Assembly (NCBI GenBank): GCA_963575745.1
Contig: CAUYUJ010000268.1
Span: 1-64,000, forward strand
DNA: 64,000 nucleotides
Direction: 5' to 3'
From: Prorocentrum cordatum
Taxonomy: Eukaryota
Position numbers and translations under genes: made by a program. Below are positions 35,901 through 64,000 of the stretch, piece after piece. The stretch's first letter is position 1; every line of letters starts with the position of its first letter. Under the pieces are notes generated by a model. That model was not told where the DNA came from. It was given only the letters and a program-made list of their open reading frames with translations, and did no database searches.

Positions 35901-37951
35901 GCCAGGACAGCCGTGGCCGATCGCCATCCCGCGGATCAGGAAGCCAACGGTCTTCACAACGCGGGGGGTTTCGCTACGCAAGCGATTCACGACAGGGACG
36001 TGGCAACCGACGCCAATACGACCGATCCCGTTCGACATCCAGGAGGTCCCAAGACTCTCGCAGCCAATCGAGAAGTCGTTACGACAGATCTTCGAGATCT
36101 ACCTCCCGAGGACGAGACAATCGTGGCGGCGGACGCGGCAGTCCACGCGGCCGTGATAGATCATATGGCAGTGACAAAGGACGTGGCAAGCGGTATCCGA
36201 GCCGCGGATCGTCCCGTGGTTCACCCAACACTAGAGCACGTTCTCCTGCCAACTTTAGACGTTCACGTCATTCAGACCGCAGTTACGTCATCCGTGACAA
36301 GACCCGCATGGCCAACACTAAGGCCACAGCGACAGCTACCAAGACACGTCGTCGGATACGCTTCGACGTACGCAACGTGGACTACTACTTCCATACCAGA
36401 TCTGGCAGAGCCAGACTGGACAGATGGAAAGAGCTGCCGAATGAGGGCGACATCGTCAAAGTACCAGATCCATTACCACAAAAATGGTGGGATGATAGTG
36501 CAGAAGCCTTACGAGAATGTCAAAAAGAGGCACAACTATGGTACGACGAACTGTACGACTACCGACACAACAAAGAGTCGGTGGCCACACCAACTGCGAT
36601 CCGAAAGCATGACGACACTGTCAAGCAGTCATCAAAGACTGCCCAGACGACAACAACGACAATGCAAGTCGACACTCCACGTTCGACTGCAGCATTGACA
36701 AGGTCTTGGGTTCTTGATAGTGGCTCTGCCCATCATATTCAGGGAAAACATGAACTTACGCAGACTGAGTCGAATCGCATATCTATTCGCGAAGAGCATA
36801 TTCTGGAAACTGCAAATGGTGATCGTACCGTCAACGAGCACTACGACATACGGCTACCCGAGGTTGGACTGCATAGTTCAGCCCTTGCTTTACCAGACTG
36901 CCCATCATTACTATCAGTTGGAAAATTGATTGAGGTTGATGGCTTTCGACAGCTTTGGGATCCTGAGCTGGGCTACATGCTTCAGGATCCGGGGGGCCAA
37001 TGGTATAAGATTCCAGTCAACAATCGAGTGCCAGAGTTACGACTCGACGACTTAACACGGATACCACCACCACGTTTATGCACTTCGTCAGCACCCCGCC
37101 GTCGTCAGCGAAAGCGTTCATCCGCCCGCTGTAACGACACTTGTTGGCGCTGCAAAACTACAGAGCAACCAACCACTGCAGACGAGCTACGACCCCACAT
37201 AGGGACCTGCCCCAAGAGACCACATGTCGGAGAGGGAGGAGGAGCACGGACCATCACGGTCGAAGAATCTCCCGACACACGCACAGACGAGCCCAGCGTG
37301 GACACAACCACCGACTCGCCTACGTCTCAGATGCAGTGTTCTCCTCCACAATGCGGGGGGTTCGATATAGCTCAAGCAGACAACGACATACCGACAGAGA
37401 CATCCACACGGACGCATCCAGACAACGATCGAGTTCTGCCCAACAGACAAAAGAAACCGATCGACCCGATGCATTACATGACTCACAGCCCAAAACATCC
37501 CGACTGTGAGATCTGTTCTCGTACGATGGCACAGAATGCCCCGTGTAGACGACAGCACAAACCACATCCACCGGCAGACCCCACCGAAGAGGATAACGCC
37601 TACGAGGCTTTTGTCCCGAAGAAGTTCGGTGAGGCTCTAACTGCCGACCATATCGTACTGGCCAAAGACGATGCCGCGGACAAACATGGCGACAAATATG
37701 CACTCGTTGTCCTTGACAGATATACTGGCATCTTCATGGCCTACCCAGCGCTACACAAAGACGCAGCTACTACAAAGGCATCCTTTCAACAGTTCATCGC
37801 CGCGAACGATGAGGTGAAGCATATCTACACAGACAACTCTGGAGAGCTTCAGAAAGCTTGCCGCCAACTGGGATGGAGACACGACACGAGTACGCCACAT
37901 CGTCCACAGACAAATGGATTGATTGAGCGCGTTGTCAAAATTGTCATTCCT
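32984..37951 (+). CDS. gag-pol: Copia polyprotein part 1: coiled-coil Gag, three CCCH zinc fingers, RS-rich tract, aspartic protease, integrase HHCC and DDE core
   Basis: First ATG after the PBS. CCCH fingers at 35546-35845, WVLDSGSAHH at 36707, HYMTHSPKHPDCEIC at 37472, LTADH..IYTDNSGE..NGLIER. The coding frame switches at ~37952 (one extra T); unshifted, the ORF stops at 38101. Confidence 0.9.
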
Positions 37952-37952
37952 T

Positions 37953-46900: not shown

Positions 46901-47735
46901 GGGTCGTCGTCCTGCATTTAACGATGTTCGAATGGGCGACTTCATTGTCATTAAGAATTGGGGTTCTACCAAATGCTTCCACTACGACAACCATTGGCCC
47001 AAAGGCAATCACAATACCAAGATTGCCTTGTCCAAGGGACACATATATGGTCCAATCATCCATTTCGGCATCTTCGACAAGTTCTTTGCGGTACAAGTAC
47101 CTATTCTCAACTACGGTTTACGATGGGTAAATATCTGGTATAATGACAAAAGCATGCCCCTCAAGGGCGTTGTATTTGCATTGCCGATTCGTATCGAAGA
47201 ACACGCCATCGATCCAACATGGATGGAGACTGCCCTGAAAGGCCCGACATCTTGCAGCGAGGGGATACTGCAGCACAAGGTTAGCGGCAGCTTACCATAC
47301 CTTGGAATGCCTAGCATCCATAGACCACGTATTCCGCGTACACCACCAAGAAGGCCCGCTCCACGGACACCTGATCCAGACGAGCTGGTGGCCACACCTG
47401 CCGAGGACAACGCTCAGACGGGCGACATTCCTCGACAGGATACAGCATCATCGCATGATCCACTGATCACCGTAATCGTGGACATATCAAATATCGTTCT
47501 TACTGCAGATGAGAAAGCTGCGAACGACAACATGAGGGCAGACCTCTCGGCAGACATCCAAGCAGAAGAGCAGATCGAGGCAAGCATCCTCGATAACATC
47601 ATTGATCCGCCATCGAATTTCCGTGATCATCCAGACTACGACCCCGACGAGGATTCAAGATGGATTACACAGTCTGATGATTGCCGCGTGTATTGTTGGA
47701 CATCGGCGTTATTGGTGGATTCGCCTATGATCTAG
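37953..47735 (+). CDS. pol: Copia polyprotein part 2: integrase C-terminus, RT, RNase H, then an extension with SGNH-like and Tpt1/KptA domains
   Basis: EGLFMGYH; KFKGRVVVQGN, LRLALYGHP and YVDD (40110-40121); RNase H FTDASFAD..SSTESE..EDNQA..ADMMTK (40899-41576); frame stays open to TAG at 47733-47735. Confidence 0.92.
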   Translation, partial: GTRAVLHMSGLGHEWWKEAMQAFCCGHNFVHTSTGVAALNEEHAEKTAHEIRFGESFPGHCIPFGARIFWKCLNPEINNETAKFKENTREGLFMGYHLHSGGRWSGDYLVLDTATYAKNPDGDLCHVHRVKDIIIPDGRFTYPVQDGTLRHHNPEAHDEVKASTSRPLGDKPMPDPPLSYPKEWDDPSMMTTEDNAIDIQTSASEVAAPAPEPDYWEQRGYCVIRHIRTPRKKLFIPTDDVMNIPVPVDQLDVTRDFKTTSTFEGESNFRDVWDGVSANDHRELSEPWTGTIQFYELPKITPDGKMVVRGRETRVQTTTRPDHVLPEHWKTLSRGQQKKEIDYANDVKRAREIRDRAALRVWTRQDKQVNNFRTTTSGGPTWNTVERRITYDTDNGDVIRDENVKGVTNKEILYAKLPGGPRDITTVLYYRQLPQQHDGEERALVFVDNEGTDFGTLNPLIRKFTQSVAIPTMPRETNYMPAHRDKIPDSTWSRPALVTRNLSKKEVAAEPRAQEALRKEYERLEKKQTWMLETVAEKADIESQAIRNGTKVHFFNILELSSVKHEELPPDLRKFKGRVVVQGNTGKDETGLAAIFADAASSASHIEASKLCDATALLPQYAGEQSDAPGAYTQALLYGDGRIDPVDTWITIPKWRQPTSWSKYNNPVCRLRLALYGHPLAGVFWERKCRTCLESVGFEPISGWECVWRHNKLGLILSVYVDDFKLAGPAHNLQTGWDYIRKSGIDLDPPTPYSQYLGCGQQAYDVPQSIFDKRMSTIRPMLPAHNEKEYNTAKHVRGIRHDMLGFTDQCIERYLECASKRAQGTGSRRKRSDSPRASRSKSPSSSGSVARPTSVLNARTRSSSPAKSVDTTSTNTIPATYHDLPDAETPGIEDTSFTESDYSDEGVLGQDAASVLMKILYLARCCRFDLLHPVCMLAREITKWNTTCDKRLHRLICYIKTTRTHCLHGWIGDSSDKLSIMLFTDASFADCITSSKSTTGVFAALVGPNTFFPVNAVCKKQTVVSHSSTESEIVALDSALRLEGLPLLSFWEAVVGVAKTCKEKNTCLSCHRHVDPAMCPTLAAKKKRKPSPRKAPPTRGSSPSRRQLPLNTDLPTTPKRRTISHEGTVLHVDPEPAPEISAPKVRLIVLEDNQAVIKIVQKGRTPALRHLHRTHRINLDWICETCQIEHIELKYVGTKEQIADMMTKHFETKKADLWKDLLEHSLIFPVTPIQCPPIRGPRRPDGLPHEAEPPKLNGCPEICKILLTEKERWGEVGSECGFQCVGQANHEGLCACMYHYGVPAADTASRTPRSRARSPHGRHPRHPPSPQRDAERVRTLIIRSHRSNFTTRATKLTSILFAACEANISEIGSNPDPSIHEMDQAQPLNLVGWPIGYDKEYDPNARDDDRVGFAYHAQTGRPRDPEDGYIYIHQRRADRSGEFDLRVPDESSIRELARFASVEAKKWASTESGSVGGNANYEYNTFTATPWLSFMRAMCMISSLFNRNPSVQDSVRGLHDDLNATIPGSDRKCPPSNFTTMILKTEWMMIHNDWSKIGSAVLGQYTEDSVTDTQNYYNNGLSAPSDVYQNGLVTPCYAPKIDRAMAKLPTRPPGIARTSDTSGHIGHIVEDNLVTNTRAFSDLTQTKKFRRKLTTWLTARGGFGSIGSNSKTVATPSDHPNGWVAILDDPQETERTYRWTPYNEGNDFFGDAADHMGSNDPGMTPGNDVDPFELDHAKYSAFCGGRLVSTLLSDNGWHSLVQEDLGLLLHHAFGPSGHAYKWTNLYTDSTWIMHPKKGAKGAKHKKYPTFGIDELNAAQKRIDLAKASNTALVPLFMPCLNRAEYMGGATLEHLSTMIRDDIMMWAFSFGNYREWFRQNDTPIGQDCVLLPEAGYEGVRYGMEELRKQRFEKEESRINALLNNQFENTLEQRNMIRKIREARGLMFQSDNASIKKWRELNETIWEYWANDFPSSIKQRHYHRGLNAMVVWSANDIACANPGQNTIDMRRHHSRAPTNVHELQKMECEGGVPTLMPVHVLVDVSRFVDVMQYFRCPTVMGPGKAAQWGAHPNFDHHTSDLITIMQNRGITVLPSDHWVDTYDRVTPQAWHAKQNNHNMAMFTTQFCDAVCYRNFCALIQSLPSQPYPFRPPLLTSVTDNQAYTQAKEIMAALDFREKLTNEWKRDLSLTTLMTQTANEMAHCAWMASCAEGTLPASLPAETGDTTEPTPGRSTRTPATDPSDPDQTLPDNDPWVMAYNDLFQYLMLLIKEYPGAWASWHSLEKDELLEPKIVKTVEDAHAVTWVVFEQFLRQIKELDGDDNATKSRLIAEENRLSSHRIGPAAENEKNIEACKTFFKQNALDRVALGHDPNVPTSVWRAADDTAQPAPPGPLPDPLQPGPQSIKASQPSTPEPKAEQQPADQLPKAEAVPIPDDGTDLEAMELEATPAEEEPSPHEMNILSWQDSCERSMHEDTSKLGIFDNSCTIREWKLQYGVKDEHPYMCPMLRGTKATNGFACIEDQEWYEQLLHDDSVIAHAPDIAQSGCFPEWKWIPLPHYDDVRYGPELIDEEWLGTNKYMSKDITTMLRHEIHYKKFWINQFHDRRINIWDKTTKNDWKIPSNWKSFKEMVEWKFRDRKERHNGPSMEAAVAHFKKDGENDGYTDWNDYYPIFIIRAFQKHIDPQKNRIEIYAKPIPDGGDPSTFDWNSVIAIRCVGGHSCVNPSSKPWNMGWESLQWTDIKYLHHGTASRAWKNILKTGIIPGYVEPHSQRDRTYKPSQRSEAFFSSSTYLNNVQKNPHTSVESYKFNSYKNEVELVINMEIATKAGCRFWLGAQGAIMTEDVVPAAAIIAIRRLKPHHMHGQQLWPDGDPWDYPPLAAREPLSKYEICACLPGELIDDPPGLAPIDPDQDMEPPRTTPASAPSARPGETPAGRTSAEDALDEQIVRAMIQETNHKADDKEWLIALSHCREALRPITAKIMQKDWGRRPAFNDVRMGDFIVIKNWGSTKCFHYDNHWPKGNHNTKIALSKGHIYGPIIHFGIFDKFFAVQVPILNYGLRWVNIWYNDKSMPLKGVVFALPIRIEEHAIDPTWMETALKGPTSCSEGILQHKVSGSLPYLGMPSIHRPRIPRTPPRRPAPRTPDPDELVATPAEDNAQTGDIPRQDTASSHDPLITVIVDISNIVLTADEKAANDNMRADLSADIQAEEQIEASILDNIIDPPSNFRDHPDYDPDEDSRWITQSDDCRVYCWTSALLVDSPMI
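45684..46505 (+). other. Tpt1/KptA-family NAD+-dependent RNA 2'-phosphotransferase domain within the polyprotein
   Basis: SKDITTMLRH, KNRIE, IRCVGGHS, YLHHGT..ILKTGIIPG, RSEAFFS and LVINMEIATKAGCRFWLGAQGAIMTEDVVP match the family motifs SKxxSxxLRH, KxRF, IRAxQGHS, LxHGT..I..GL, RxHVHxS and F..S.NGV.L...VP in order. Confidence 0.85.
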
Positions 47736-49766
47736 ATGAGGCAGATCATTGAGATACACAGTGGCGCAGACAGAATCGTAATGGACAAAATTCAGTCACA
47801 TCTACAATTTGAAATTCGATTTGGATCGAAAGCATGGAACGCGGAGTCATATCATTTGAACTACAATCATACCCACAAGTGGGCACATGACTTACCCAAT
47901 TGTGGTGCAGATCACTTCTTCAAAAAGTTGGTACACTACCTCGACCCAGAGACTATCGAGGAGTCGACCACTGGCATCTTTCAATGGATTTCCAAAGTAT
48001 ACCAGAACATCTTGAAAGATAGTATTGTGGAGCTACCAGATTTCGCCAAGGAAGTCATCCATGACAACCATCCTGCACTTCAGGCATTGCGTGACCTATA
48101 CAAAAATTGTACTGCGACATACGGTGATCCAGAGTTTCCTGCGTGGGAAGAGCTGGTGGAAACACCTGCTGCGCCTCGAGAGGAAGGCGCTGAGCAGGAT
48201 ATTCCCCAGGACCCAGGCAGTGTTGCGTCTGCAGCTCCCGATCAGGAGACTATGGTACGCATCATAGCTGAACAGACGGGACTCAAGCGCGAGGAGGGCG
48301 ACAACGAGGCTACCTTGCAGAAGCAGGCTCGCCGTCTTCGTGAGGAGAACGTATGCCATGGCGGTACTGAGGATACCGACAACGTCAAGATAGAGTACAA
48401 AGGACTGCCAGGGGAAAGGTTGTCTCGGATCGAGATCGAGGGTTTAAGCAGATCGATCGCTTCCAGACCAAACACCGAGATCAATCGTGAGGCGATCAAT
48501 CAGATCGGTCAGAGCCTCGCTCGCGGTCAGGACACCCGCTGGGGATCCCGCGATCACCTGACTTCGGCAGGGGCCCCCGAGACGATCTTGCATCCCATAC
48601 CGCTCTGTAACAATTGCGGTCGAGATCTGCCCCTCGGTATCGTCACAGGTGACGGCACACTCTGTGATATATGTTGGCAATACACTGTGGCCGTAGGCGC
48701 CACAGGTAAGAGCACCGCCACACAGAGTGACCTCGCGTACCTCCAGAAGTTGACGAACTGGATCAAGACGACGTTGTCCGAGGACCAGGTCGCGAGATAC
48801 ATGAAGGATGGCGCACATGTCATTATGGCGGGTGCGCGATCCCCCATAGGCACAGAGAAAGATCAGTTGCGGAGATTGGCCAATACGTCCAAGAAGAGGT
48901 ATCAGAAGTGGGTCGAAGCCGGTAGCCCGCCTGCACACGAATGCAGATTAATGGGCGAATCCGAGGACGACCGACCTCTGTACTACCCATACGCCAATCT
49001 CATTCAACGCTTTCTCAACGACCTCAGATTCCATCATCAGATGACAGGAGCCCGCGTGAATGTCGGCAAGAAGCCCTGGAGAGTCGAGGACATGCGCGAC
49101 GCGTGGGACATCCTTGACGTCAGTATTAGGACAGGACAGGCTGGTCGGAGAAAGTGGTGGCTGAACGAGGGACGCATTGACAGGCAGACGCGGCAGGCGC
49201 GCGGACTGATTACGGTTTCTCTCCCTCGAGGGGACGGAACCCGTGAACAGTTCACCCAGCGCAAGCTTGCCGCGATTGCCAACGAGCTGATAGGCTCCCT
49301 CGATCCGTCACACACTGACCAGAGGGGGGGTAGTACAGGGATGAGAACCGATCCAGATACACACTCCCAACAGTCCGATGACGCCATGGAGCCGCGGCCG
49401 CCGCCGCGGCCGCCGCCGCGCCCTGCTCCTGGCGACGCCGCTGCATCCAGCGCCTCAGGCGCAGAGGACTACATGCCCGCGATGCCGCGCGCCAAGAGAG
49501 CACGTACATCTGATTACGCTGCTTACTGGCGCCACAATCTCGAGGACAGCGATTGGGGTCTTCGATACTGGAGTTATTACATCAAATGTTGGATCTACAT
49601 TGCGATCAACAACGACGAGTATGTGTACATCCAGGATATCACGTACAACGATTGGTTCCGCAACTGGATCCCGAGGACCACTTGGGAAACGTTTACGACA
49701 AGCTATGCGACGTACAACGGCCAGAGGGTGTGGGACCGCAGGTTCTACAAGGACGGCGACGCGTAG
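47736..49766 (+). CDS. Copia polyprotein part 3 (676 aa), in frame after a single TAG; CxxC..CxxC zinc ribbon and W/Y-rich C-terminus
   Basis: Same frame as pol with a TAG-ATG junction; LCNNCGR..LCDICW; ends in tandem stops TAG TGA inside the element. Confidence 0.8.
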   Translation: MRQIIEIHSGADRIVMDKIQSHLQFEIRFGSKAWNAESYHLNYNHTHKWAHDLPNCGADHFFKKLVHYLDPETIEESTTGIFQWISKVYQNILKDSIVELPDFAKEVIHDNHPALQALRDLYKNCTATYGDPEFPAWEELVETPAAPREEGAEQDIPQDPGSVASAAPDQETMVRIIAEQTGLKREEGDNEATLQKQARRLREENVCHGGTEDTDNVKIEYKGLPGERLSRIEIEGLSRSIASRPNTEINREAINQIGQSLARGQDTRWGSRDHLTSAGAPETILHPIPLCNNCGRDLPLGIVTGDGTLCDICWQYTVAVGATGKSTATQSDLAYLQKLTNWIKTTLSEDQVARYMKDGAHVIMAGARSPIGTEKDQLRRLANTSKKRYQKWVEAGSPPAHECRLMGESEDDRPLYYPYANLIQRFLNDLRFHHQMTGARVNVGKKPWRVEDMRDAWDILDVSIRTGQAGRRKWWLNEGRIDRQTRQARGLITVSLPRGDGTREQFTQRKLAAIANELIGSLDPSHTDQRGGSTGMRTDPDTHSQQSDDAMEPRPPPRPPPRPAPGDAAASSASGAEDYMPAMPRAKRARTSDYAAYWRHNLEDSDWGLRYWSYYIKCWIYIAINNDEYVYIQDITYNDWFRNWIPRTTWETFTTSYATYNGQRVWDRRFYKDGDA

Positions 49767-50489
49767 TGAGTCGGCCGCAAGGCCCACTGCTCAAGAGCAG
49801 AACTTCCGTTCATCAAAGTTCGCCTTGAGCGGTGGCTAATACATTCTTTTAGGCCACTTCAATCTTTCACACAAGTGGCCATACACACATATAGATATCT
49901 TTTGCGATCACCGAGGCAGCCTCCTAAGGAGCAACGCCAACGGGAGTCGCCAAACAGATTTTATACATCATTTTCGTGTTCATCAACACGACATTTTCTC
50001 CTGGCCAGGTACTTGCTTTAACGCAGATTCGCATTTCTTTCAGGATCGCGTTCGTCAACACGATCTTGGCATACATTTGCTTTTAGGCAGACTTGTGCTT
50101 GATTTCAAGATTGTGTTCGTCAACACGATCTTAGCATGCATATGTTAACAATTTAACAATATTGCGTCGAGAATAATCTGATAGCTGGTGGCAACACCTG
50201 CCTCGCAAATCTTGCGAGGCGGTTTACGTTGCCTTGGTGCTCAGATCTTCTTTCTCCGCCTACCTTTGCCTCATTCTTCTCCTCCCTCGAGTGCCGAAGC
50301 GTTTTGGGGGGCGCACCGAGGGGCGGCAAAGACCGCCTGGAGAAGAAAAAGAGACCCAAGGTATCTCTTCTTACCTCACTTCGCAGCTGTGGCTTCGCTG
50401 ACTTTTAGCCCAGCTGCCTTTCAGACTTAAGGTAAAGGAGTTCTGAGGTTACGGGTTCCATCCTCCTGATCCCGAGTCCTGCCTTCACG

Positions 50490-50510
50490 GGCGGGATTCG
50501 GGACGGGGGG
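50490..50510 (+). other. Polypurine tract
   Basis: G-rich ..GGGACGGGGGG immediately 5' of the 3' LTR. Confidence 0.8.
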
Positions 50511-50706
50511 TGTTTATGGAACCCGTGTAATACCTTCATATATACTCCTTATCCTTACCTCCCCCGCACCTGGCCGTTTGGGCTCAGGTACTGAGTTGGA
50601 GCGATCGTACCTTGATCGCTTGGGAGGGAAAGATATCCATCTATCCCTTCATCTCTCTACCAACGGATCAGGGGTTCTGTACTCTTGTACTTCAACCCCA
50701 TACACA
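50511..50706 (+). repeat. 3' LTR (196 bp)
   Basis: Direct repeat of 32724-32919, followed by the ATCAC TSD. Confidence 0.97.
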
Positions 50707-50834: not shown

Positions 50835-52885
<2,051 letters not shown>

Positions 52886-53024
52886 TAGTAGTAGTAGTAG
52901 TAGTAGTAGTAGCGTAGCAGTAGTAGTAGTAGTAGTAGCAGTAGTAGTAGTAGTAGCAGTAGTGGTAGTGGTAGTAATAGTCGCAGGACTAGTCGTAGCA
53001 GTAGTCGTAGTAGTCGTAGTAGTC

Positions 53025-53065
<41 letters not shown>

Positions 53066-53126
53066 TGTTGTAGTAGTAGTAGCAGTAGCAGTAGTAGTAG
53101 TAGTAGTAGTTGTTGTTGTTGTTGTT

Positions 53127-56100
53127 GTGAGCACAGCATAAGTGCAAGATTTCAGGTGAGAACGCAGCATAAGTACAGACCACACCTGGCCACACCTTAC
53201 CACATCCTTCGTCTCATACTTCTCTCACGATGGCTTCACCTCCGGCATGGTGGTCGAGCGCTGAGGAGAGCTTGTTGGAAAAGCAGGAAGATAAGATGAA
53301 GGAGATGTTGACCCCGATCAAACAAGATGTCCAGACCTTGAAGGGGGACGTCACGGGCATCAAACAGTCCCAAAAGGAATTGGAGGAGCGGGTCGGGAAG
53401 CTCGAGACGGCTCAGCCTGCGAGCTCCTGGCGTGCCATTTTCGTCGAGATCATGGGGCTGTGCGAGTGGGAGTACACATCCTCCAAGGGGATGAACAGGA
53501 CCGAGGCCACCGAAATGGTCTTGGAGTTGAAGGGCCAACTTCCGCAGGAACTCCGTGAGCACGTCCGGGAGATGCAGCTCAAGGGACCCAGGAACTACGC
53601 CATCAGGATCCCCATGGCGCCCGAGTATTTACAGGAGATCCGTGTGATCTGGAACGAGTACCTCACGAAGGAGGACAAGAAATGGAAAATGGCGGACACC
53701 GTGATCTACGTGCACGCCGAGCGCCACCCCGACGTCCAGGCGCAGTATACCAAGCTCGGGCGCGTCAAGGACTGGGTACGGGATGGGATCGACGCGACGC
53801 TGGAGCCGAAAGTGCGTTGGAGCCCCGACTTCAGCGTGGTCATCAACAAGTCCGACACGGAGGGGGATATGGGTGTTAAGGCAACTATCGTGTTATGCGA
53901 AGTTCAGCTTGGTGGAGGTATTGTATGGCATGATGAGGGGCTTCGGATCGGTGGCCTGTCCAAGACAGCCGCAGAAGAAGGAGTCAAGCGGGTCCGGAGG
54001 AAGGGACCTTTCACCAGGCAGTAGGGGTGCCCGCCGCTGAATTCGAGCACCGGGGGAGGAGGATGCTCGGTTATCACTTACAACGCGCACAAGAAGAATC
54101 CTTTTGAAATACTTCGGATCTCCAGGAGTTTGACGCGTTTGGGTACTGGGGATGCGGTTGTGCGCCTGCAGGAGATCCCGAAGTGGACCAGTGGGCGCGT
54201 AATCAATGGCACGAGGTATGTTGTACATAGCTGCCGTACCAAGAGGGCCGAACTTGCCGGGGCAAGTGGATTCGATTGTGGCTTCTTGGTGCGGGGAAGC
54301 CTGAATCCGAAGGTGAGGGGCGAGAGGCGCGGCAAATAGTGGGGTGGCCTTGTCTTGGCACAAGGCCCAGGCGGTTATACATTATATTTAAATGCGCATT
54401 TTATCCACGACAAGGGGAATGAGGGAGAGTATGAGGCAGACGATTTTGTTGATGAGGCGCGGGAGGAGACGGTAGCATATTGGAGGGACTGTCAGAGACG
54501 TTCTGGACGAGATCTATGCGTGATTTGCGGTTTTGACGCCAACGTGACGCTTCCAGGAAGTATAGAAGGCGCAACAGGAGAAGCGGTGCTCAGCCCTCTC
54601 CGCTCACACACTGTACGAATGCAGCGCCGGAACACTTCTTGGATGGAGGTTTTAGGAATACGAGCGGTCAACTCGTATGCCACCCGCGCGTCGGGTGGAG
54701 AACTTTGGACGTGTGGCCTGAAACGCCGGCCGGAGGATTGATCTCAGATAGACTACATCGGAGTATCCTCTATACTGCAGGGTGCTGGGGGTGCCATTAA
54801 TTATTTTGACATCCGTAATGAAAGCCGCTTGATGAAGAAGATGGACCACAGACCCGTCAAAGCCGAGATCACGTGGAAAGACGGTTCTGGATTTGATTCT
54901 CAGGGCCCGGCCTCACACCAAATACTTAGGCGACTTCCCAAGCGGGCTATATCCGACGCGTCGGTGCGGGAAGCATTCAGATCATGCGTTGCGCGGCCCG
55001 GTGTTTTTTTAATTTTCAATTGGATGAGTTCGGGATGGTCATGTTCGAGATATCCTATGAGTATTTCTCTGCCGATTGCCATCGCCCAGAAGACGACGGC
55101 CAAGCCCAGCGCCGCGCGCGGATCAAGGACATCCGGGCGCTCCTCCGGATCGAAGCCGACACGGGGAGGAGGAGATCACCGCTGAAATTGCATTGGGTGT
55201 CTCGGAGGGCCATTGCAGCATCCGCTTCTCATAAGCGGCTAGAAGGGTTGAAGAAACACAGTACCAAGGAACCGTGTACTCTACCAACCTCCTTCGAAAT
55301 CGGCGGCATCCAAAGTTTCGACCGAGAGGAGTGGTTGGATGGGGGCAGTCCAGTTCGGCATCGGTCGCTTCACGGACCCGGACAACCCACCTTCGAGGCA
55401 ACACGAACGGATGCAAGAGCTTTGGTCGGCAGCTCGCTATGATCGCTGGGACGGCCGCGGCGGTGAGATTGTCGAGCTTTGGGACGTCATGCAAGCGAGG
55501 GCCTCCTTGCGGAAAGGAGGGGGGCCAGGAGCAGATGGCATTATTCCGGACGCGTATCACATGACCCCGTTCTTATGTATATTTCACATTCATGAACTTT
55601 TTTCAGCAGTGCGCTCCTCTGGGCCCATCGGCACCGCGATCGCCATTCTGGTGCACTTGGGAATCTATAAACCTTCCAAAAACGAAAATTATGGAACGAT
55701 TCGAAGACCTGCGCTGGATCTGTAAGTCGGCCAACCTTCAAACATGGTATATGCGAGCATTGCGTCCCAGGCTCCGGGACCAATTGCGCCCATCCCACGC
55801 CCACTCGCACGGATTCCGATCTGGGACTTCCACGACGAAGATGACAGGGTTGGTGCGCGAAGTTCTTCATCTCTCTCACGTTTGGGGCTTGCCGGTGATA
55901 GTCGGGTGCCAGGATGTTTTGATAGCGTGCGACTCCATGCCGCATGAATTGGTGAAGGAGTCCTTGCTCGCTCGTGGGATGTCTTCGCACTCCGTCGGCC
56001 TCTTCACGCGGGAACTGAGCGGGCTTGAATCCAGCATCCGCTTACCCTTGGTAGGTGAGACTAGACGGTTCCCATTTACAAAAGGAGGCAAGCAGGGCGG

Positions 56101-57567
56101 AGTGGAAACTCCAGATGAGTGGAGGGCACTTCTAGAACGCGTGTTAGAGCCACTCGTCAGATTATGGATGGAGGCTGGAATTGGTTTTAGATTACCAGGC
56201 GACGGTGATAGAGAATCTGGTCTTCTCGCCAACCATGCGATCTGGGCCGGCAGCGTAGTTTTGTCTGCTACAGGGGGAGGTATGATGCAGCATATGATAC
56301 AACAGCTGAACGAGTTCATCGCTCAATATCGTACTTCTCGCGGAGAGCGATGCTTGAAGTGGAAGCCAGAGTCGCTAGAATTCATGCGCGGCGTGTCTTT
56401 GGCGGATAAGTCGATCGGACGCTTCTCTTTGGAACAACGCGGAACCGCGTTATTTTACGAACAGAAAGACGGGTTGATGTTATTGGGGGGAATATCTGGA
56501 CCACAGAGGAGCCACGGGCAAACGCGCGGACTTCAAGTTGGGCCGGGCCGAGAAATGCCACTACCGACACCTGTCCGCCTTGCAGAGCCGGAGTGCACCA
56601 GTCTTGAAGCGGCTTCGGGCGCGGGCGACGGGGCCTGCAGCTTGCGCCGCGCGCGGTTCAGAGAATTGGCGCCTTACTGCCGGCTTATTGCGTAAATTGA
56701 GGACGTGGGAGCTTCAGATTGCACGGAGGATGTTTCGTTTTCGCCGCCGGCCCGACGAATCGGCAATGTTGTTTAACCAGCGAACTTCGACTTGTATCGC
56801 AAAGTGGATGTCAGCAGCCGGATTGGATTCTGTTTCCATGCGTGCGACGCGTGCTGCATACCAGTCTGATTGAGACGCGCACTCTTGGAGATTAGATTCC
56901 GGCGAGAACCCGCCTGCAGAAGCACGCGACTGCCGATCGACAGTGTGGTGGGAGACAACGCGAATACTAGCAACTTATTCAAGACGACGGCGGCTGGGAA
57001 TCGTGCGTTCGAGAGCAGGGCATCCAGTGACATCCTGGGAACATCTTTGTCAGCTTGCTCATGTACTCGGCGGCGCGTCAGTTTTGAAAGGTGATCATCA
57101 CAGGCCGTTGTTCGCACGCGTTTCCAGGTCACTGCTGAAACTTCATCATCTGAACATCCAGCCCCGGAAGCAGACCAGTGAGTTCGTTGAGTGGGGCCCA
57201 CGCGATTTTAACGCCCTTGCAGATGACGCTGCCAATAAAGCCCTGGGCCGGGGGGCGGATTGGATGCGCGCGCAGCGATGGCGCGCAGAGGGCACGAGCC
57301 AGCGCAGTCAATGACCGTCCATGTCTCGACGGTGCTAGGCGCGGCTCGGGTGAATCAGCTGCTGGTGTCGCTTTTATCGCATATTGCGTTTCCTTGGAGA
57401 GAGACCTCCTGCTCCGCGCTGGAAAGTTGCTCTGCGCGTTGCCATCGGCGTTCCATGCCGAAGTACTCGCTGCAGAATGGTGCCTCGACATATTCCTTTC
57501 GCATTTTCCCGTTATACCCAGCGGCGGGCAGGCATGCGAACCGCATGTGCCTTGAGGGAAGAAAGAC
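53127..57567 (+). mobile_element. Decayed APE-type non-LTR retrotransposon (LINE), copy 1
   Basis: Coiled-coil N-terminal ORF (53230-54024); APE motifs TYN, LQEIP, GFDANV, IDYI, MDHRPV; RT motifs HGFRSG, GGKQGGVETP; RNase H motifs. Many stops and frameshifts; lacks ~280 bp present in copy 2 at ~62980-63260. Confidence 0.9.
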
Positions 57568-57805
57568 AGTAGTAGTAGTAGTAGTAGTAGTAGTAGTCGT
57601 CGTCGTAGTAGGAGTAGTAGTAGTAGTAGTAGTAGTGGTAGCAGTGGTAGTAGTGGTAGTAGTAGACGTATAGATAGTAAAAGTAGTTGTAGTACTTGTA
57701 GTAGTTATAGTAGTCGTAGTAGTAGTAGTCGCCGTAGAAGTAGTAGTATCAGTAGTAGTAGTAGTCGTAGTCGTAGTCGTAATAGTGGTAGTAGTGGTAG
57801 TAGTG

Positions 57806-57840
<35 letters not shown>

Positions 57841-57873
57841 CGTAGTGGTAGTAGTGGTAGTCGTGGTAGTCGT

Positions 57874-57912
<39 letters not shown>

Positions 57913-58044
57913 TCCGTGGTAGTAGTTGAAGAAGACGAAGAAGAAGTAGTAGTAGTCCCAGTAGTAGTAGTGGTACTAGTAGTACTAGTAGTAGTCGTAA
58001 TAGCAGTAGTAGTAGTAGCAGTAGTAGGAGTAGGAGTAGGAGTA

Positions 58045-58884
58045 GGAGTCAAGCTAGCCAGCTCGAGCGAGTCAAGCATGGCATGCCCAGCCCCACCCGC
58101 CCTCCCACAACATAAGAAGCAAAGCTGGCACAACTGGGGGCCGAAGTCACACCGGCCAGCCGGTTTGGTACAGCTGATGCGGCCGCGATGGCGGTTGCCG
58201 ACGGGAACTGGCGAGCGCGTGTTGAATGCCGCGCACGCATTGCCAGACGAGTCGAGAATGGCCCGGTACACCGCAGGAAGCCAGAGGTGGCCGGAGGAAG
58301 CCCGACGGTCTGACAGGACACCCCAAAGCATTTTTGTGAAAAAGCATTGGGTTTTTGATGTTTTTATGTTGAAATGCTTGCAAACACACGGTGTTCGGTA
58401 GGATTCTGACATGAACGCGCGAGTGTGCTCTTTGTGGTATTTTTTGCACAGGATTCGCGGCCTGGGTGCATGACAGAGCATCGCGAGCGCACCGCGCGAT
58501 GACGTGAAATCGCTGGATTTGACCGAATTCTTAAGATTCCTATGGTTTTCCTATGATTTCAGCAAGAGAGCCCGGGCGGGAAATTTGTACAACTTTTGTG
58601 GAAAAAAGCATTGGGTTTTTGATGTTTTTATGTTGAAATGCTTGCAAACACATTGTGTTCGGTAGGATTCTGACATGAACGCGTGCGTGTGCTCTTTGTT
58701 GTGTTTTTTGCAATGGATTACCGCCGTGGACGACAGGACGTCCGTGTCGAGAGAAAAAAATAAGAAAAATGTTGATTTTGTATTGTTTTTTACATGTTAG
58801 GATGGGACCACCCGGACGCGGCCCCTAATGGCCGGCCTGAGGGGGGAGTAGGAGTATATTCTAATAAGGAATAAGGATAGGAGT
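58045..58884 (+). repeat. Non-coding spacer unit, copy 2, with an internal duplication
   Basis: Matches 51746-52592; the AAAAAGCATTGGGTTTTTGATG...CTGACATGAACGC block occurs twice here (~58331 and ~58593). Confidence 0.9.
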
Positions 58885-59005
58885 AGTAGTAGTGGTAGTA
58901 GTCGTAGTAGTAGTAGTAGTAGCAGTAGTAGTAGTAATAGTAGTAGTAGTAGTAGTAGTGCTAGAAGTAGTCGCAGGAGTAGCCGTAGTAGTAGTAGTAG
59001 TCGTC

Positions 59006-59072
<67 letters not shown>

Positions 59073-59077
59073 TAGTA

Positions 59078-62000
59078 GTGAACACAGCATAAGTGCAATA
59101 TTTCAGGTGTGAACACAGCATAAATACAGACCACACCTGGCCACACCTTACCACATCCTTCGTCTCATACTTCTCTCAGGATGGCTTCGCCTCTGGCATG
59201 GTGGTCGAGCGCTGAGGAGAGCTTGTTGGGAAAGCAGGAAGATAGGATGAAGGAGATGTTGACCCCGATCAAAGAAAATGTCCAGACCTTGAAGGGGGGC
59301 GTCACGGGCATCAAACAGTCCCAGAAGGAAGTGGAGGAGCGGGTCGGGAAGCTCGAGACGGCTCAGCCTGCGAGCTCCTGGCGCGCCACTTTCGTCGAGA
59401 TCATGGGGCTGTGCGAGTGGGGGGGGTGCACATCCTCCAAGGGGGTGAACAGGACCGAGGCCACCGAATTGGTCTTGGAGTTGAAGGGCCGACTTCCGCA
59501 GGAGCTCCGCGAGCACGTCCGGGAGATGCAGCTCAAGGGACCCAGGAACTACGCCATCAGGATCCTTATGACGCCCGAGTATTTACAGGAGATCCGTGGG
59601 ATCTGGAACGAGTACCTCACGAAGGAGGACAGGACATGGAAAAAGGCGGACACCGTGATCTACGCGCGCGCCGAGCGCCACCCCGACGTCCAGGCGCAGT
59701 ATACCAAGCTCGGGCGCGTCAAGGACTGGGTACGGGATGGGATCGACGCGACGCTGGAGCCGAAAGTGCGTTGGAGCCCCGACTTCAGCGCGGTCATCAA
59801 CAAGTCCGACACGGAGCGGGATATGGGTGTTAAGCCAACTATCGTGTTATGCGAAGGTCAGCTTGGTGGAGGTATTGCATGGCATGATGAGGGGCTTCGG
59901 ATCGGTGGACCGTCCAAGACAGCCGCAGAAGAAGGAGTCAAGCGGGTCCGGAGGAAGGGGCCCTTCACCAGGCAGCAGGGGTGCCCGCCGTTGAATTCGA
60001 GCACCGGGGGAGGAGGATGCTCGGTTAGCACTTACAACGTGCACAAGAAGAGTCCTTTTGAAATGCTTCGGATCTCCAGGAGTTTGAAGCGTTTGGGCAC
60101 TGGGGATGCGGTTGCGTGCCTGCAGGAGATCCCGAAGTGGACCAGTGGGCGCGTAATCAGTGGCACGAGGTATGTTGCACATAGCAGCCGTGCCAAGTGG
60201 GCCGATTTTGCCGGGGTGAGTGGATTCGATTGTGGCTTCTCGGTGCGCGGAAGCCTGAATCCGAAGGTGAGGGGCGAGAGGTGCGGCAAATATTGGATTG
60301 GCCTTGTCGCGGCACAAGGCCCAGGTGGCTATGCGTTAGTTTTATGTGCGCATTTTATCCATGACAAGGGGAATGATGGGGAGTATGAGGCAGACGATTT
60401 TGCTCATGAAGGGCGGGAGGAGACGGCAGCATATTGGAGGGGCTGTCAGAGACGTTTTGGACGAGATCTATGCGTGACTTGCGGTTTTGACGCCAACGTG
60501 ACGCTTCCAGGAAGTATAGAAGGCGCAACAGGAGAAGCAATGCTCAGCCCTCTCCGCTCCCACGCTGTACGAATGCAGCGCCTGATCACTTCTTGGATGG
60601 AGGCTTTAGGAATGCGAGCGGTCAACTCGTACGCCACCCGCGCGTTGGGCGGAGAACTTTGGACGTGTGGCCTGAAACGCCGGCCGGAGGATAGATCTCA
60701 TATCGACTACATCGGAGCATCTTTTATACTGCAGGGCACTGGGGGTGCCATTAATTATTCGGGCATCCGCAATGAAAGCCCCTTGATGAAGAAGATGGAC
60801 CACAGACCTGTCAAAGCCGAGATCACGTGGAAAGAGGGTTCTGGATTTGATTCTCAGGGCCCAGCCTCACACCAAATACCTAGGCGACTTCCCAGGCGGG
60901 CTATATCCGACGCATCGGTGCGGGAAGCATGCAGATCATGTGTTGCACGGCCGGATGTTCTTATCCTTCAATTGGATGAGTTCGAAAAGGTCACGTTCGG
61001 GATATATTATGAACATTTCTCTGCCGATTGCCATCGCCCAGAAGAAGACGGCCAAGCCCAGCGCCGCGCGCGGATCAAGGACATCCGGGCGTTCCTCCAG
61101 GTCGAAACCGACACGGGGAGGAGGAGATCACTGGTGAAATTGCATTGGGTGTCTCGGAAGGCCAGTGCAGCATTCCGTTTCCAATGAGCGGCTAGAAGGG
61201 TTGAAGAAACACGGTGCCGCGGAACCGCGCACTCTACCAACCTCCTTCGAAATCGGCGGCATCCAAAGTTTCGACCGAGAGGGGCGGTTGGAGGGGGCAT
61301 TCCAGTTCGGCATCGGTCGCTTCACGGACCCGGACAACCCACCTTCGAGGCAACACGAACGGATGCAACAGCTTTGGTCGGCAGCTCGCAATGATCGTTT
61401 GGACGGCCGCGGCGGTGAGACTTTCGAGCTTTGGGACGTCACGCAGGCGAGGGCCTCCTTGCGGAAAGGGGGGGGGGGGCCAGGGGCAGATGACATTATT
61501 CCGGACGTATATCGCATGATCCCGTTCTTATGTATATTTCTCATTCATGTTTGTTTTTGTTCAGCGGTGCGCTTCTCTGGACCCATCGGTACCGCGATCG
61601 CCATTCTGGTGCATTTTGGAATTTATAGGCCTGCCAAAAACGAAAGCTATGGAACGATTCGAAGACCTACGCTGGATCTGTAAGTCGGCCAACCTTCAAA
61701 AATGGTATATGCGAGCATTGCGTCCCAGGCCCCGGGGCCACTTGCGTCCATCCCACGTCTACTCGCACGGATTCCGATCTGGAGCTTCCACGACGAAGAT
61801 GACAGGGTTGGTGCGCGAAGTTCTTCATCTCTCTCACGTTTGGGGCATCTCTCTCACGTTTGGGCCTTGCCGGTGATAGTCGGGTGCCAGGATGTCTTGA
61901 TAGCGTTCGACTCCATGCCGCGTGAATTGGTGAAGGAGTCCTTGCTCGCTCGTGGGATGTCTTCGCACTCCGTCGGCCTCTTCACGCGGGAACTGAGCGG

Positions 62001-63780
62001 GCTTGAATCCAGCATCCGCTTACCCTTGGTAGGTGAGACTAGACGGTTCCCATTTACAGAAGGAGGCAAGCAGGGCGGAGTGGAAACTCCAGTTGAGTGG
62101 AGGGCACTTCTAGAACGCGTGTTAGAGCCACTCGTCAGATTGTGGATGGAGGCTGGAATTGGTTTTAGATTACCAGGCGACGGTGATGGAGAATCTGGTC
62201 TTCTCGTCAACCATGCGATCTGGGCCGACAACATAGTCTTGTTTGCTACAGGGGAAGGTATGATGCAGCATATGATACAACGGCTGAACGAGTTCATCGC
62301 TCAATATCGTACTTCTCGTGGAGAGCGATACTTGAAGTGGAAGCCAGAGTCGCTAGAATTCATGCGCGGCGGGACTTTGGCGGATAAGTCAGTCGATCGG
62401 ACGCTTCTCTTTGGAGCAACGCGGAACCGCGTTATTTTACGAACAGAAAGACGGATTGATGTCATTGGGCGAATATCTGGACCCCAGAGGAGCCACGGGC
62501 AACAGCGCGGACTTCAAGTTGGGCCGGGCCGAGAAATGTCACTACCGACACCTGTCCGCCTTGCAGAGCCGGAGTGCACCAGTCTTGAAGCGGCTTCGGG
62601 CGTGGGCGACGGGGCCTGCAGCTTGCGCTGCGCACGGTTCAGAGAATTGGCACTTTACTGCGGCTTATTGCGTGACATGAGGGCGTGGGAGCTTCAGATG
62701 TTACGGAGGATGTTTCGTTTTCGCCGCCGGCCCGACGAATCGGCAATGTTGCTTTACCAGCGAACTTCGACTTGTATCGCAAAATGGACGTCAGCAGCCG
62801 GATCGGATTTTGTTTTTATGCGCGCGATGATTCCGGCGAGAACCCGCTCGCAGAAGCACGCGATTGCCGATCGACAGTGTGGCGGGGGACAACGCGAATA
62901 TTAACACTTTATTCAAGACGACGGCGGCTGGGGATCGCGCGTTCGAGAGCAGGGCATCCAGTGACACCCTGGGATCATCCTTTTACTTGCGCGCGGCAGA
63001 CGGGCGGGGGCGATTGACAGGGGCATCGACGAAAGTGTTCTCCCAGGCAGAAGTGTGGGAAGACGTTCGAACAGTTTTCTGAGAGCCTCTGCCGACAGCG
63101 GGGCCTTCAGGCGCAACGGGCGGAGCGAGCAGAAGGTGGCTTCTCGACGCTCGTCACGGCGCGGCCCCCGTCGGAGGAATCTGAGCTCCTGAAGCCTAAC
63201 CCTCGGGGGCGCTCCTGGGGCACATTTGGGCGACGGGTTTGGATGCAGACGGACGACCGACAGCTTGCTCATGCATTCGGCGGCGCGTCAGTTTTGAAAG
63301 GTGCTCATTACAGGCCGCTGTTCGTGCGCATTTCCAGGTCATTGCTGAAACTTCATCATCTGAACATCCAGCCCTGGAAGCGGACCAGTGAGTTCGTTGA
63401 GTGGGGCCCGCGCGATTTTAATGCCCTTGCAGATGACGCTGCCAATAAAGCCCTGGACCGGGGGGCGGATTGGATGCGCGCGCACAGCGATAGCGTGCAA
63501 AGGGCGCGAGCCAGCCTAGTCAATCACCGTCCATGTTTCGACGGTGCTAGGCGCAGTTCGGGTGAATCAGCTGCTGGTGTCGCTTCTATCGCATATTACG
63601 TTTCCGGGGAGAGAGACCTCTTGCTCCGCGCTGGAAAGTTGCTCGGCGCGTTTCCATCGGCGCTCCTTGCCGAAGTACTCGCTGCAGAATGGCGTCTCGA
63701 CATCTTCTTTTCGCAGTTTCCCGTTGCGCCCAGCGGCGGGCAGGCATGCGAACCGCATGTGCCTTGAGGGAAGAATGAAA
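59078..63780 (+). mobile_element. Decayed APE-type LINE, copy 2 (more complete)
   Basis: ORF 59181-61187 fuses the coiled-coil domain with APE (TYNVHK, CLQEIP, GFDANV, HIDYIG, MDHRPV); RT GCQDVLIAFDSM, GGKQGGVETP, WADNIVL; RNase H at ~63234-63720; flanked by (GTA)n on both sides. Confidence 0.92.
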
Positions 63781-64000
63781 GTAGTAGTAGTAGTAGTAGT
63801 AGTAGTCGTCGTAAAAGTAGTAGTAGTAGTAGTAGTAGTAGGGGTAGGAGTAGTAGTAGTAGTAGTAGTAGTAGCAGTAGTATTAGTGGTAGAAGTAAAA
63901 AATAGAAGTAGAAGTAGTTGTAGTAGTTGTAGTAGTTGTAGTAGTAGTAGTAGTAGTCGTCGTAAAAGTAGTAGTAGTAGTAGTAGTAGTAGGAGTAGTA

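What the first reader, a model, noticed from the sequence alone, without database searches (positions are those of the whole stretch)
63234..63720. Circularly permuted RNase H at the LINE C-terminus
RNase HI order is normally FDGA(D1)..AE(E2)..xD(D3)..RxxNxxAD(D4). Here it is RVWMQTDDRQL (D3), EWGPRDFNALADDAAN (D4), a linker, CFDGARRSSGESAAGV (D1), SALLAEVLAAE (E2), then stop. Copy 1 shows the same D4-D1-E2 order (~57190-57480). All four acidic residues are retained, and the two halves add up to one archaeal/plant-type domain, which fits a true permutation. I do not know of this being described in retroelements.
Basis: partly seen in the sequence, partly recalled or inferred. Interest (0 to 1): 0.78.

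Follow-up and report, generated by a model that had tools for sequence, protein, structure and literature searches.

The report
Circularly permuted RNase H in a LINE
The last domain of this jumping-gene (LINE) protein is an RNase H enzyme whose two halves are joined in swapped order. The same arrangement is kept in hundreds of distant relatives, so it looks like a real evolved rearrangement of a classic enzyme fold, although the two copies in this window are broken.

Summary

**In the window.** ORF 63018-63767 (+) carries the four RNase H catalytic motifs in the order D3, D4, D1, E2, then a stop, then a (GTA)n tail.

**In relatives.**
- A phmmer search of 1.84 billion representatives found 270 relatives (125 at E<=1e-10).
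- Of 154 relatives examined, 118 have both halves. All 118 show this order, none the canonical order, and none has a second copy of either half.
- Pfam RVT_3 hits relatives as two half-matches in swapped order.
- The family profile hits only four PDB sequences, all type-1 RNases H, each with its two stretches swapped.
- D23, D83, D119 and E163 are conserved in 66/68, 96/96, 95/96 and 79/90 sequences.

**Structure.** AlphaFold2 with the family alignment gives pLDDT 93.7 and pTM 0.89. The element order is beta4-alphaB-alphaD-beta5-alphaE-linker-beta1-beta2-beta3-alphaA.

**Refutation test.** Twenty-six relatives with more than 100 residues upstream show no hidden D1/E2 half. So the "tandem domains" condition is not met.

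**Limits.**
- Both window copies are decayed units of a roughly 5.95 kb tandem array.
- The window's own sequence gets no Pfam hit.
- I could not measure the active-site geometry or test catalysis.
- I found no paper describing this in retroelements. One 2026 paper reports an unnamed permuted "RNase H-like" pair.

The parts
63186..63764 (+). Permuted RNase H domain of copy 2 (193 aa), an open frame with all four catalytic carboxylates present
63216..63485 (+). Half A (domain residues 11-100): beta4 ending in D23 (63252-63254, 'D3'), alphaB, alphaD, beta5, then alphaE with R76, N79, D83 (63432-63434, 'D4') and N87. Corresponds to RVT_3 profile positions about 55-123
63462..63521 (+). Linker of about 20 residues joining the old C-terminus (end of alphaE) to the old N-terminus (beta1). 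Predicted as a short strand (96-99) plus a helix (101-110). D91 (87/96) and W96 (77/96) are conserved
63507..63725 (+). Half B (domain residues 108-180): beta1 with D119 (63540-63542, 'D1'), beta2, beta3, then alphaA with E163 (63672-63674, 'E2'). Corresponds to RVT_3 profile positions about 2-55
63765..63767 (+). TGA stop of the ORF2-like frame. In relatives the protein ends a median of 3 residues after the half-B profile
63780..64000 (+). (GTA)n-type microsatellite 3' tail, which is also the start of the next array spacer
62829..63185 (+). Trp-rich connecting region between RT/thumb and RNase H, colinear with P0012 residues about 599-727. It is interrupted by an in-frame TGA at 63015-63017. 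It shows no similarity to either RNase H half
61186..62829 (+). Reverse transcriptase region of copy 2. It is broken by frame changes and by an in-frame stop at 61681-61683
   Evidence: (RVT_1 E 0.0047)
59124..61187 (+). N-terminal 687-aa open frame with a coiled-coil-like start and a probable AP-type endonuclease (about 60030-60989)
   Evidence: ESM Atlas lead 0.94 to Exo_endo_phos clusters. There is no Pfam hit and no PDB sequence hit
57051..57555 (+). RNase H remnant of copy 1. D4, D1 and E2 are in the same order. D3 is lost to a 279-bp deletion at 57048/57051, and there is a frameshift between the halves at about 57272-57286
53150..57566 (+). Copy 1 of the LINE-like element, 91% identical to copy 2 (59101-63780)

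Best explanation
The C-terminal domain of this element's RT polyprotein is a naturally circularly permuted type-1 RNase H of the archaeal-like (Pfam RVT_3) kind. The chain starts at the old alphaA/beta4 loop and runs beta4(D)-alphaB-alphaD-beta5-alphaE(RxxNxxAD). It then crosses a roughly 20-residue linker that joins the old C- and N-termini, continues through beta1(DGA)-beta2-beta3, and ends with alphaA(AE). The stop codon follows a few residues later.

The arrangement is fixed in an old, diverse family of APE/RT-type non-LTR retrotransposons. Members are 25-55% identical to the window's domain.

Shown here: the order of the motifs, their conservation, the half-wise homology to RNase H, and a confident single-domain fold prediction.

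Inferred: that in intact members the four carboxylates form the usual two-metal site; that the domain removes the RNA template from the RNA:cDNA hybrid during target-primed reverse transcription; and that the permutation arose by duplication or fusion of an RNase H domain followed by loss of the outer halves.

The two copies in the window are dead. They are decayed units of a tandem array about 5.95 kb long.
For: Sequence order in the window.

Family: 270 hits at E<=1e-3, 125 at E<=1e-10 and 18 at E<=1e-30.

Order in relatives: I searched 154 proteins with my own half-domain HMMs. Of these, 137 have a significant half A, 134 a significant half B, and 118 both. All 118 have A before B, none B before A, and none has two significant copies of either half.

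Pfam RVT_3: half-hits in swapped order, several above the 21.6-bit cutoff; 41 of 96 members hit at E<=0.01.

Family profile against PDB sequences: only 4 hits at E<=10, all type-1 RNases H, each with its two stretches swapped. 3hst_B has E 1.9e-4, with profile 131-170 matching chain 6-43 and profile 37-110 matching chain 73-136. The others are 4e19_A (E 0.0038), 3u3g_D and 4h8k_A.

Conservation: D23 66/68, R76 94/96, N79 94/96, D83 96/96, N87 95/96, D119 95/96, G120 95/96, E163 79/90.

AlphaFold2: pLDDT 93.7, pTM 0.89. Elements are E20-22, H25-31, H40-58, E71-73, H76-92, E96-99, H101-110, E113-122, E127-137, E143-155, H159-177. The catalytic residues sit where they do in canonical RNase H: D23 just after a strand, D83 in a helix, D119 inside a strand, E163 near a helix start (the canonical placement is recalled, not computed).

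Half-wise structural matches in swapped order: 3u3g_D Z 4.0, model 5-95 to chain 25-140; 3aly_B Z 3.9, model 7-97 to chain 25-141; 4e19_A Z 3.8, model 111-182 to chain 67-174; Ty3 RT 4ol8_A Z 3.9, rmsd 2.6, model 103-180. The top two BFVD hits are pithovirus RNases H, at E about 0.01.

Position in the polyprotein: colinear with P0012 from the RT through to the end. In L001 and L002 the ORFs stop within about 20 residues of the E2 helix.

ESM Atlas lead: RVT_3 and RNase_H clusters at 0.91.
Against: The window's own domain gets no Pfam hit at E<=10 and no PDB sequence hit to an RNase H.

Whole-domain structure searches find no RNase H at significance. Foldseek against PDB gives no hit at E<=1e-3, and its top hit is PelC at TM 0.34. 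The VIA top Z is 5.1, to CinA and SPOUT-type proteins. The RNase H half-matches at Z about 4 lie within the noise band the tool itself describes. This is what sequential aligners should give on a permutant, but it is not positive proof of the fold.

I had no coordinates, so I did not measure the clustering of the four carboxylates or the strand order.

E163 is less conserved (79/90) than the three aspartates.

Most relatives are short, unnamed metagenome fragments on 1-5 kb contigs. No complete APE-to-RNase H open reading frame was recovered.

Catalysis is untested.
Confidence: 0.85

Rival explanations
1. The fold really is permuted, but the domain no longer acts as an RNase H. It could be a structural or nucleic-acid-binding module, or a nuclease with another substrate, with the element relying on host RNase H.
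For: Many non-LTR elements lack RNase H and use the host enzyme, and the benefit of element-encoded RNase H is called poorly understood (PMC5348765, passages read). E163 is the least conserved catalytic residue, at 79/90. No activity data exist.
Against: The three Asp are near-invariant (66/68, 96/96, 95/96). The RxxNxxAD and DGA motifs are kept across sequences that are only 25-55% identical to the window's domain. That pattern is typical of selection on catalysis.
Confidence: 0.09
2. This is a remnant of tandem RNase H domains. A diverged first half lies upstream of TDD and completes a normal domain, and the C-terminal D1/E2 piece is a leftover of a second domain.
For: Dual RNase H arrangements exist in LTR retrotransposons and retroviruses (abstracts of PMC4408406 and PMC10508981, seen in the listing). 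Duplication is the usual route to permutation.
Against: Among the 26 relatives with more than 100 residues upstream of a complete half A, none has a significant second half B; across all 154 proteins searched, the secondary hits have i-E>=2.9 and at most 1.6 bits. A profile of the 200 upstream residues (26 sequences) against half B gives hhalign probability 0.2%, E 0.29, and against half A 1.4%. Pfam finds no RVT_3 stretch there. AlphaFold2 packs the two halves present into one confident domain, pTM 0.89. The C-terminal half carries the conserved D1 and E2.
Confidence: 0.03
3. This is a private rearrangement or assembly artefact of the two decayed, tandemly duplicated copies in this window.
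For: The two copies are units of one tandem array. The spacer 57569-59079 is also repeated at 51260-52788. They are therefore not independent insertions, and both are broken.
Against: The same order is seen in 118 of 118 relatives from other sources (ENA, NCBI, JGI). It is also present in the contigs of L001 and L002.
Confidence: 0.01
4. The motifs resemble RNase H by chance and the domain is not an RNase H homologue.
For: No Pfam or PDB hit on the window sequence alone. The structure searches give only weak scores.
Against: Relatives score above Pfam's own cutoff on RVT_3. The family profile hits only RNases H in the PDB. All ten best named ESM Atlas clusters share the RNase H clan.
Confidence: 0.02

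Closest known systems
Archaeal-like RNase H (aRNH, Pfam RVT_3 PF13456) domains at the C-terminus of plant Ta11/L1, oomycete L1 and Utopia non-LTR retrotransposons (PMC5348765, passages read)
   Same: A type-1 RNase H of the Arg-containing archaeal-like kind, sitting at the C-terminal end of a non-LTR RT polyprotein. It has the DEDD carboxylates and the PRxxNxxAD motif.
   Different: Those domains are colinear, in the order D1-E2-D3-D4. Here the order is D3-D4-linker-D1-E2. The word stem 'permut' occurs 0 times in that paper. I did not determine the RT clade of the present family.
Solved stand-alone type-1 RNases H: Rv2228c N-terminal domain (3HST), Halobacterium RNase H1 (4E19), LC11-RNase H1 (3U3G, 4H8K), Sulfolobus tokodaii RNase HI (3ALY)
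   Same: These four sequences (3HST, 4E19, 3U3G, 4H8K) are the only PDB sequences the family profile hits. 3U3G, 3ALY and 4E19 each give a structural match to one half of the model.
   Different: In every case the two matched stretches are in swapped order relative to the chain. No whole-domain colinear match exists.
[quoted passage not shown]
   Same: A recent report that a permuted RNase H-like fold exists in nature. Its authors state they found no earlier literature case of RNase H permutation.
   Different: The text I could read does not name the proteins. The figures and supplement could not be read. No link to retrotransposons is mentioned ('retrotranspos' occurs 0 times). It may or may not be this family.
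Engineered circular permutants of E. coli RNase H used in folding studies (recalled from memory, not checked in any call)
   Same: They would show that the fold tolerates new termini.
   Different: They are laboratory constructs, not natural, and I did not verify where they were cut.

Membership tests
Type-1 RNase H, archaeal-like / Pfam RVT_3 (PF13456) | Significant match to the family profile | tested here: met
   Met in relatives only, and only as half-domain matches. P0001 30.5 bits, P0013 29.5, P0057 29.4, P0003 27.8, P0023 26.3 and P0006 25.0, against a cutoff of 21.6. 41 of 96 members hit at E<=0.01. The window's own sequence gets 0 hits at E<=10.
Type-1 RNase H, archaeal-like / Pfam RVT_3 (PF13456) | Four catalytic carboxylates (D, E, D, D) | tested here: met
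   All four are present in window copy 2. In alignment A1: D23 66/68, D83 96/96, D119 95/96, E163 79/90. 3hst_B aligns D1, D3 and D4 to its own motifs.
Type-1 RNase H, archaeal-like / Pfam RVT_3 (PF13456) | Conserved Arg in the active-site region instead of His (aRNH signature, per PMC5348765 passage) | tested here: met
   R76 of the W-x-P-R-x-x-N-x-x-A-D motif is present in 94/96.
Type-1 RNase H, archaeal-like / Pfam RVT_3 (PF13456) | Canonical chain order beta1-beta2-beta3-alphaA-beta4-alphaB-alphaD-beta5-alphaE | tested here: not met
   The order is beta4-alphaB-alphaD-beta5-alphaE-linker-beta1-beta2-beta3-alphaA. This is the point of the finding: a homologue with permuted connectivity.
Type-1 RNase H, archaeal-like / Pfam RVT_3 (PF13456) | RNase H three-dimensional fold with a clustered active site | tested here: inconclusive
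   The model is confident (pLDDT 93.7) with the right set of elements. Only half-wise matches at Z about 4 were obtained. I had no coordinates and no permutation-aware aligner.
Type-1 RNase H, archaeal-like / Pfam RVT_3 (PF13456) | Cleavage of the RNA strand of RNA:DNA hybrids | not testable with these tools
   Needs a biochemical assay.
APE-type non-LTR retrotransposon (LINE) | Non-LTR-type reverse transcriptase | tested here: met
   The window gives RVT_1 at E 0.0047, 17.1 bits, below the cutoff. The colinear relative P0011 gives RVT_1 at 32.8 bits, above the 29.6 cutoff. The best PDB hits of P0012 are R2 retrotransposon proteins, E 0.006. Colinearity is shown.
APE-type non-LTR retrotransposon (LINE) | AP-like endonuclease upstream of the RT | tested here: inconclusive
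   No Pfam hit and no PDB sequence hit. The ESM Atlas lead is 0.94 to Exo_endo_phos clusters. P0018 gives Exo_endo_phos at E 0.0021, below the cutoff. APE-like motifs are visible by eye, but the motif knowledge is recalled.
APE-type non-LTR retrotransposon (LINE) | Simple-repeat 3' tail, no LTRs | tested here: met
   (GTA)n follows the stop in both copies. The same microsatellite also precedes each copy.
APE-type non-LTR retrotransposon (LINE) | Dispersed, 5'-truncated copies with target-site duplications | not tested
   No genome is held for this window. The two copies here are tandem-array units.

The most novel reading that the evidence does not exclude
An old and diverse clade of protist or environmental LINEs has fixed a catalytically competent, naturally circularly permuted archaeal-like RNase H as its C-terminal domain. 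This would be the first described natural permutation of the canonical RNase H domain in any retroelement. The permutation moves the tether to the RT from beta1 to beta4, so it may re-orient the RNase H active site relative to the polymerase. It probably records a duplicate-then-trim event in modular retroelement evolution.
Probability: 0.6. Interest if true: 0.72.

Novelty: new variant of a known kind. Interest (0 to 1): 0.62.

Why it matters
RNase H is one of the best-studied folds. It is a model for protein folding, a drug target in retroviral RTs, and a marker for the modular evolution of retroelements.

- A natural, conserved permutant gives an evolutionary test of which chain connectivities the fold tolerates.
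- It gives a ready case for studying how tether position between the RT and RNase H affects template degradation.
- It shows that profile- and Foldseek-based annotation pipelines miss such domains. Here Pfam gives at best half-hits, and Foldseek gives no RNase H at E<=1e-3.
- RNase H-carrying LINEs may therefore be under-counted in protist and environmental data.

Tried and rejected
- **Single-sequence AlphaFold2:** pLDDT 41, unusable.
- **Foldseek against PDB and BFVD:** no hit at E<=1e-3. VIA-align against 48,161 chains gave no Z>=8. Sequential aligners cannot test a permutation directly.
- **phmmer of the window domain against PDB:** only chance-level hits (old yellow enzyme, chlorite dismutase).
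- **The search for homologous proteins, 'longer':** none.
- **The listing of cluster members:** no informative names; the only name given was 'hypothetical protein'.
- **Own genome:** not held.
- **The search for related loci with A1:** failed because no stretch was conserved enough. The smaller alignment A2 gave 3 short metagenome loci, none with a full-length element.
- **The look-up of sequencing runs:** no RNA holder listed. One DNA run holds a 0.15 share of the words; I did not lay reads on it.
- **Earlier scan notes:** nothing on this family.
- **Literature searches:** I found no paper describing a permuted RNase H in a retroelement. PMC2628886 and PMC8775202 mention permutation only in unrelated senses.
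- **Rejected readings:** tandem-domain remnant, private rearrangement, and chance motifs (see rival explanations).

Full report
**What is in the window**

The stretch 63234-63720 lies in a stop-to-stop open frame, 63018..63767 on the + strand (249 aa). Reading it directly gives:
- RVWMQTDD, starting at 63234
- EWGPRDFNALADDAAN
- a spacer of about 28 residues
- CFDGARRSSGESAAGV
- SALLAEVLAAE
- about 30 more residues, then TGA at 63765-63767
- about 12 bases later, a (GTA)n microsatellite that runs to the window end

A second copy lies at 53150-57566 and is 91% identical.
- It has D4, D1 and E2 in the same order.
- It lacks the TDD motif, because 279 bp (equivalent to 62983-63260) are deleted.
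- It has a frameshift between the halves.

**Context**

tblastn with the long relative P0012 (903 aa) shows that copy 2 is colinear with it. P0012 residues 49-583 match 61186-62829, and residues 599-893 match 62829-63710. [quoted passage not shown]

- RT: the signal in the window is weak (RVT_1 E 0.0047). The colinear relative P0011 passes Pfam's cutoff (32.8 bits). P0012's best PDB sequence hits are R2 retrotransposon proteins (E 0.006).
- Endonuclease: an AP-type endonuclease upstream is only a lead. The ESM Atlas scores 0.94 to Exo_endo_phos clusters. There is no Pfam hit and no PDB hit.
- Decay: copy 2 has several frame changes, and in-frame stops at 61681-61683 and 63015-63017.
- Tandem array: the 1.5-kb spacer between the copies (57569-59079) is also repeated upstream of copy 1 (51260-52788). 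The two copies are therefore units of a tandem array about 5.95 kb long, not independent insertions. By themselves they say nothing about function.

**Relatives**

phmmer of the 249-aa frame against 1.84 billion representative proteins gave 270 hits at E<=1e-3, 125 at E<=1e-10 and 18 at E<=1e-30. Hits are colinear over query residues about 57-232. In long proteins they lie at the very C-terminus: P0012 707-892 of 903, P0011 463-695 of 700.

I built HMMs of the two halves from a 96-sequence alignment (A1) and searched 154 fetched proteins with all filters off.
- 137 have a significant half A (D3/D4) and 134 a significant half B (D1/E2).
- 118 have both. All 118 are in the order A then B, and none in the opposite order.
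- No protein has two significant copies of either half.
- After half B the protein ends a median of 3 residues later (n=104, maximum 108 in P0010).
- In two metagenome contigs the frame stops within about 20 residues of the E2 helix.

**Is it RNase H?**

Pfam finds nothing on the window's own sequence, even at E<=10.
- The first part of the domain matches profile positions about 55-123: P0001 residues 59-131, 30.5 bits, E 3.8e-7; P0057 29.4 bits; P0006 25.0 bits.
- The second part matches profile positions about 2-55: P0013 residues 170-223, 29.5 bits; P0003 residues 145-196.
- Of the 96 aligned members, 41 match RVT_3 at E<=0.01. Apart from one RVT_1 hit and one Exo_endo_phos hit, no other family appears.

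A profile of A1 searched against all PDB sequences gives only four hits at E<=10. All four are type-1 RNases H, and each has its two stretches swapped:
- 3hst_B: E 1.9e-4. Profile 131-170 matches chain 6-43, which holds the DG motif. Profile 37-110 matches chain 73-136, which holds the D and N..AD motifs.
- 4e19_A: E 0.0038.
- 3u3g_D and 4h8k_A.

The ESM Atlas also points to RVT_3 and RNase_H clusters (0.91; all ten best named hits are in one clan).

**Conservation**

In A1 (identity to the window's domain 25-55%), the putative catalytic residues and nearby motif residues are conserved as follows:

| Residue | Role | Conserved |
|---|---|---|
| D23 | D3 | 66/68 |
| R76 | aRNH Arg | 94/96 |
| N79 | motif | 94/96 |
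| D83 | D4 | 96/96 |
| N87 | motif | 95/96 |
| D119 | D1 | 95/96 |
| G120 | motif | 95/96 |
| E163 | E2 | 79/90 |

The conserved Arg in W-x-P-R-x-x-N-x-x-A-D fits the archaeal-like (aRNH) subtype described for plant and oomycete non-LTR elements (PMC5348765, passages read).

**Structure**

Single-sequence AlphaFold2 was useless (pLDDT 41). With A1 as the alignment the 193-residue domain is predicted at pLDDT 93.7 and pTM 0.89. The elements, in order, are:
- E20-22, H25-31, H40-58, E71-73, H76-92
- E96-99, H101-110
- E113-122, E127-137, E143-155, H159-177

This reads as beta4-alphaB-alphaD-beta5-alphaE, then a linker, then beta1-beta2-beta3-alphaA.

The four acidic residues fall where they do in canonical RNase H. 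D23 comes right after beta4, D83 is in alphaE, D119 is in beta1, and E163 is near the start of alphaA. The canonical placement is recalled, not computed.

Colinear structure searches fail, as expected for a permutant:
- Foldseek against PDB: no hit at E<=1e-3; the top hit is PelC at TM 0.34.
- VIA-align against 48,161 chains: top Z only 5.1, to unrelated alpha/beta proteins.

The VIA list does contain RNase H chains matched by halves in swapped order:
- 3u3g_D, Z 4.0: model 5-95 to chain 25-140
- 3aly_B, Z 3.9: model 7-97 to chain 25-141
- 4e19_A, Z 3.8: model 111-182 to chain 67-174
- Ty3, MLV and foamy-virus RT RNase H or connection domains: rmsd 2.0-2.6 on model about 90-180

The top two BFVD hits are pithovirus RNases H at E about 0.01.

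These Z values are within the tool's stated noise band, so they corroborate but do not prove. I had no coordinates. I therefore did not measure the active-site geometry or the strand order.

Twenty-six relatives have more than 100 residues upstream of a complete half A, up to 728 residues in P0012. None has a significant half B there. A profile of the 200 upstream residues (26 sequences) gives hhalign probability 0.2% (E 0.29) against half B and 1.4% against half A. Pfam finds no RVT_3 stretch there. That region is a conserved Trp-rich segment following the RT thumb-like 'W-E-L-x-x-L-R-R-M' motif. Tandem domains are therefore not supported.

**Mechanism**

- Shown: the permuted order, its fixation in a diverse family, the retention of the DEDD set, and a confident compact fold.
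- Inferred:
  - In intact members the domain is an active two-metal RNase H. It would degrade the RNA template of the RNA:cDNA hybrid during target-primed reverse transcription.
  - The new N-terminus at the alphaA/beta4 loop changes how the domain is tethered to the RT.
  - The permutation arose by duplication or fusion and trimming. I found no intermediate.
- The window copies themselves are dead.

**Novelty**

Six full-text searches found no paper on a permuted RNase H in a retroelement. The aRNH survey PMC5348765 contains the stem 'permut' 0 times.

[quoted passage not shown] Its authors say they found no earlier RNase H case. The proteins are not named in the text I could read, and the figures and supplement are unreadable here, so overlap with this family is open.

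I rate this a new variant of a known kind. The enzyme and the element type are known; the connectivity is new. It would be moderately to clearly surprising for retroelement and protein-evolution specialists.

Noticed in passing
window 51260-64000: The LINE-like element and its 1.5-kb spacer form a head-to-tail tandem array with a period of about 5.95 kb. The spacer consists of (GTA)n-type microsatellites plus about 700 bp of unique sequence with an internal 126-bp direct repeat (58332-58455 / 58594-58719). There are at least two full units, and a third begins at 63713. Each element is flanked on both sides by (GTA)n. This could mean microsatellite-targeted insertion, or plain segmental duplication.
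   Followed up: partly
window 32724-50706: Very long open frames at 32744-38101, 37923-47735 and 47736-49766 (+) carry zf-CCCH, an integrase core (rve, E 1.3e-6), a copia-type RT (RVT_2, E 1.2e-5) and a weak Tpt1/KptA RNA 2'-phosphotransferase match (E 1.5e-4). A 196-bp direct repeat at 98% identity lies at 32724-32919 and 50511-50706. This looks like a giant (about 18 kb) Ty1/copia-like LTR element with extra domains.
   Followed up: partly
P0018 (375 aa): A predicted protein in which an Exo_endo_phos-like region (residues 5-205, E 0.0021) abuts the permuted RNase H directly (residues about 200-370), with no RT between them. It is probably an internally deleted element or a gene-call artefact.
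   Followed up: no
window 14000-32000: GC content rises to 63-70% here, against 48-56% in the transposon-rich right half. Long ORFs in this part gave no Pfam hits.
   Followed up: no
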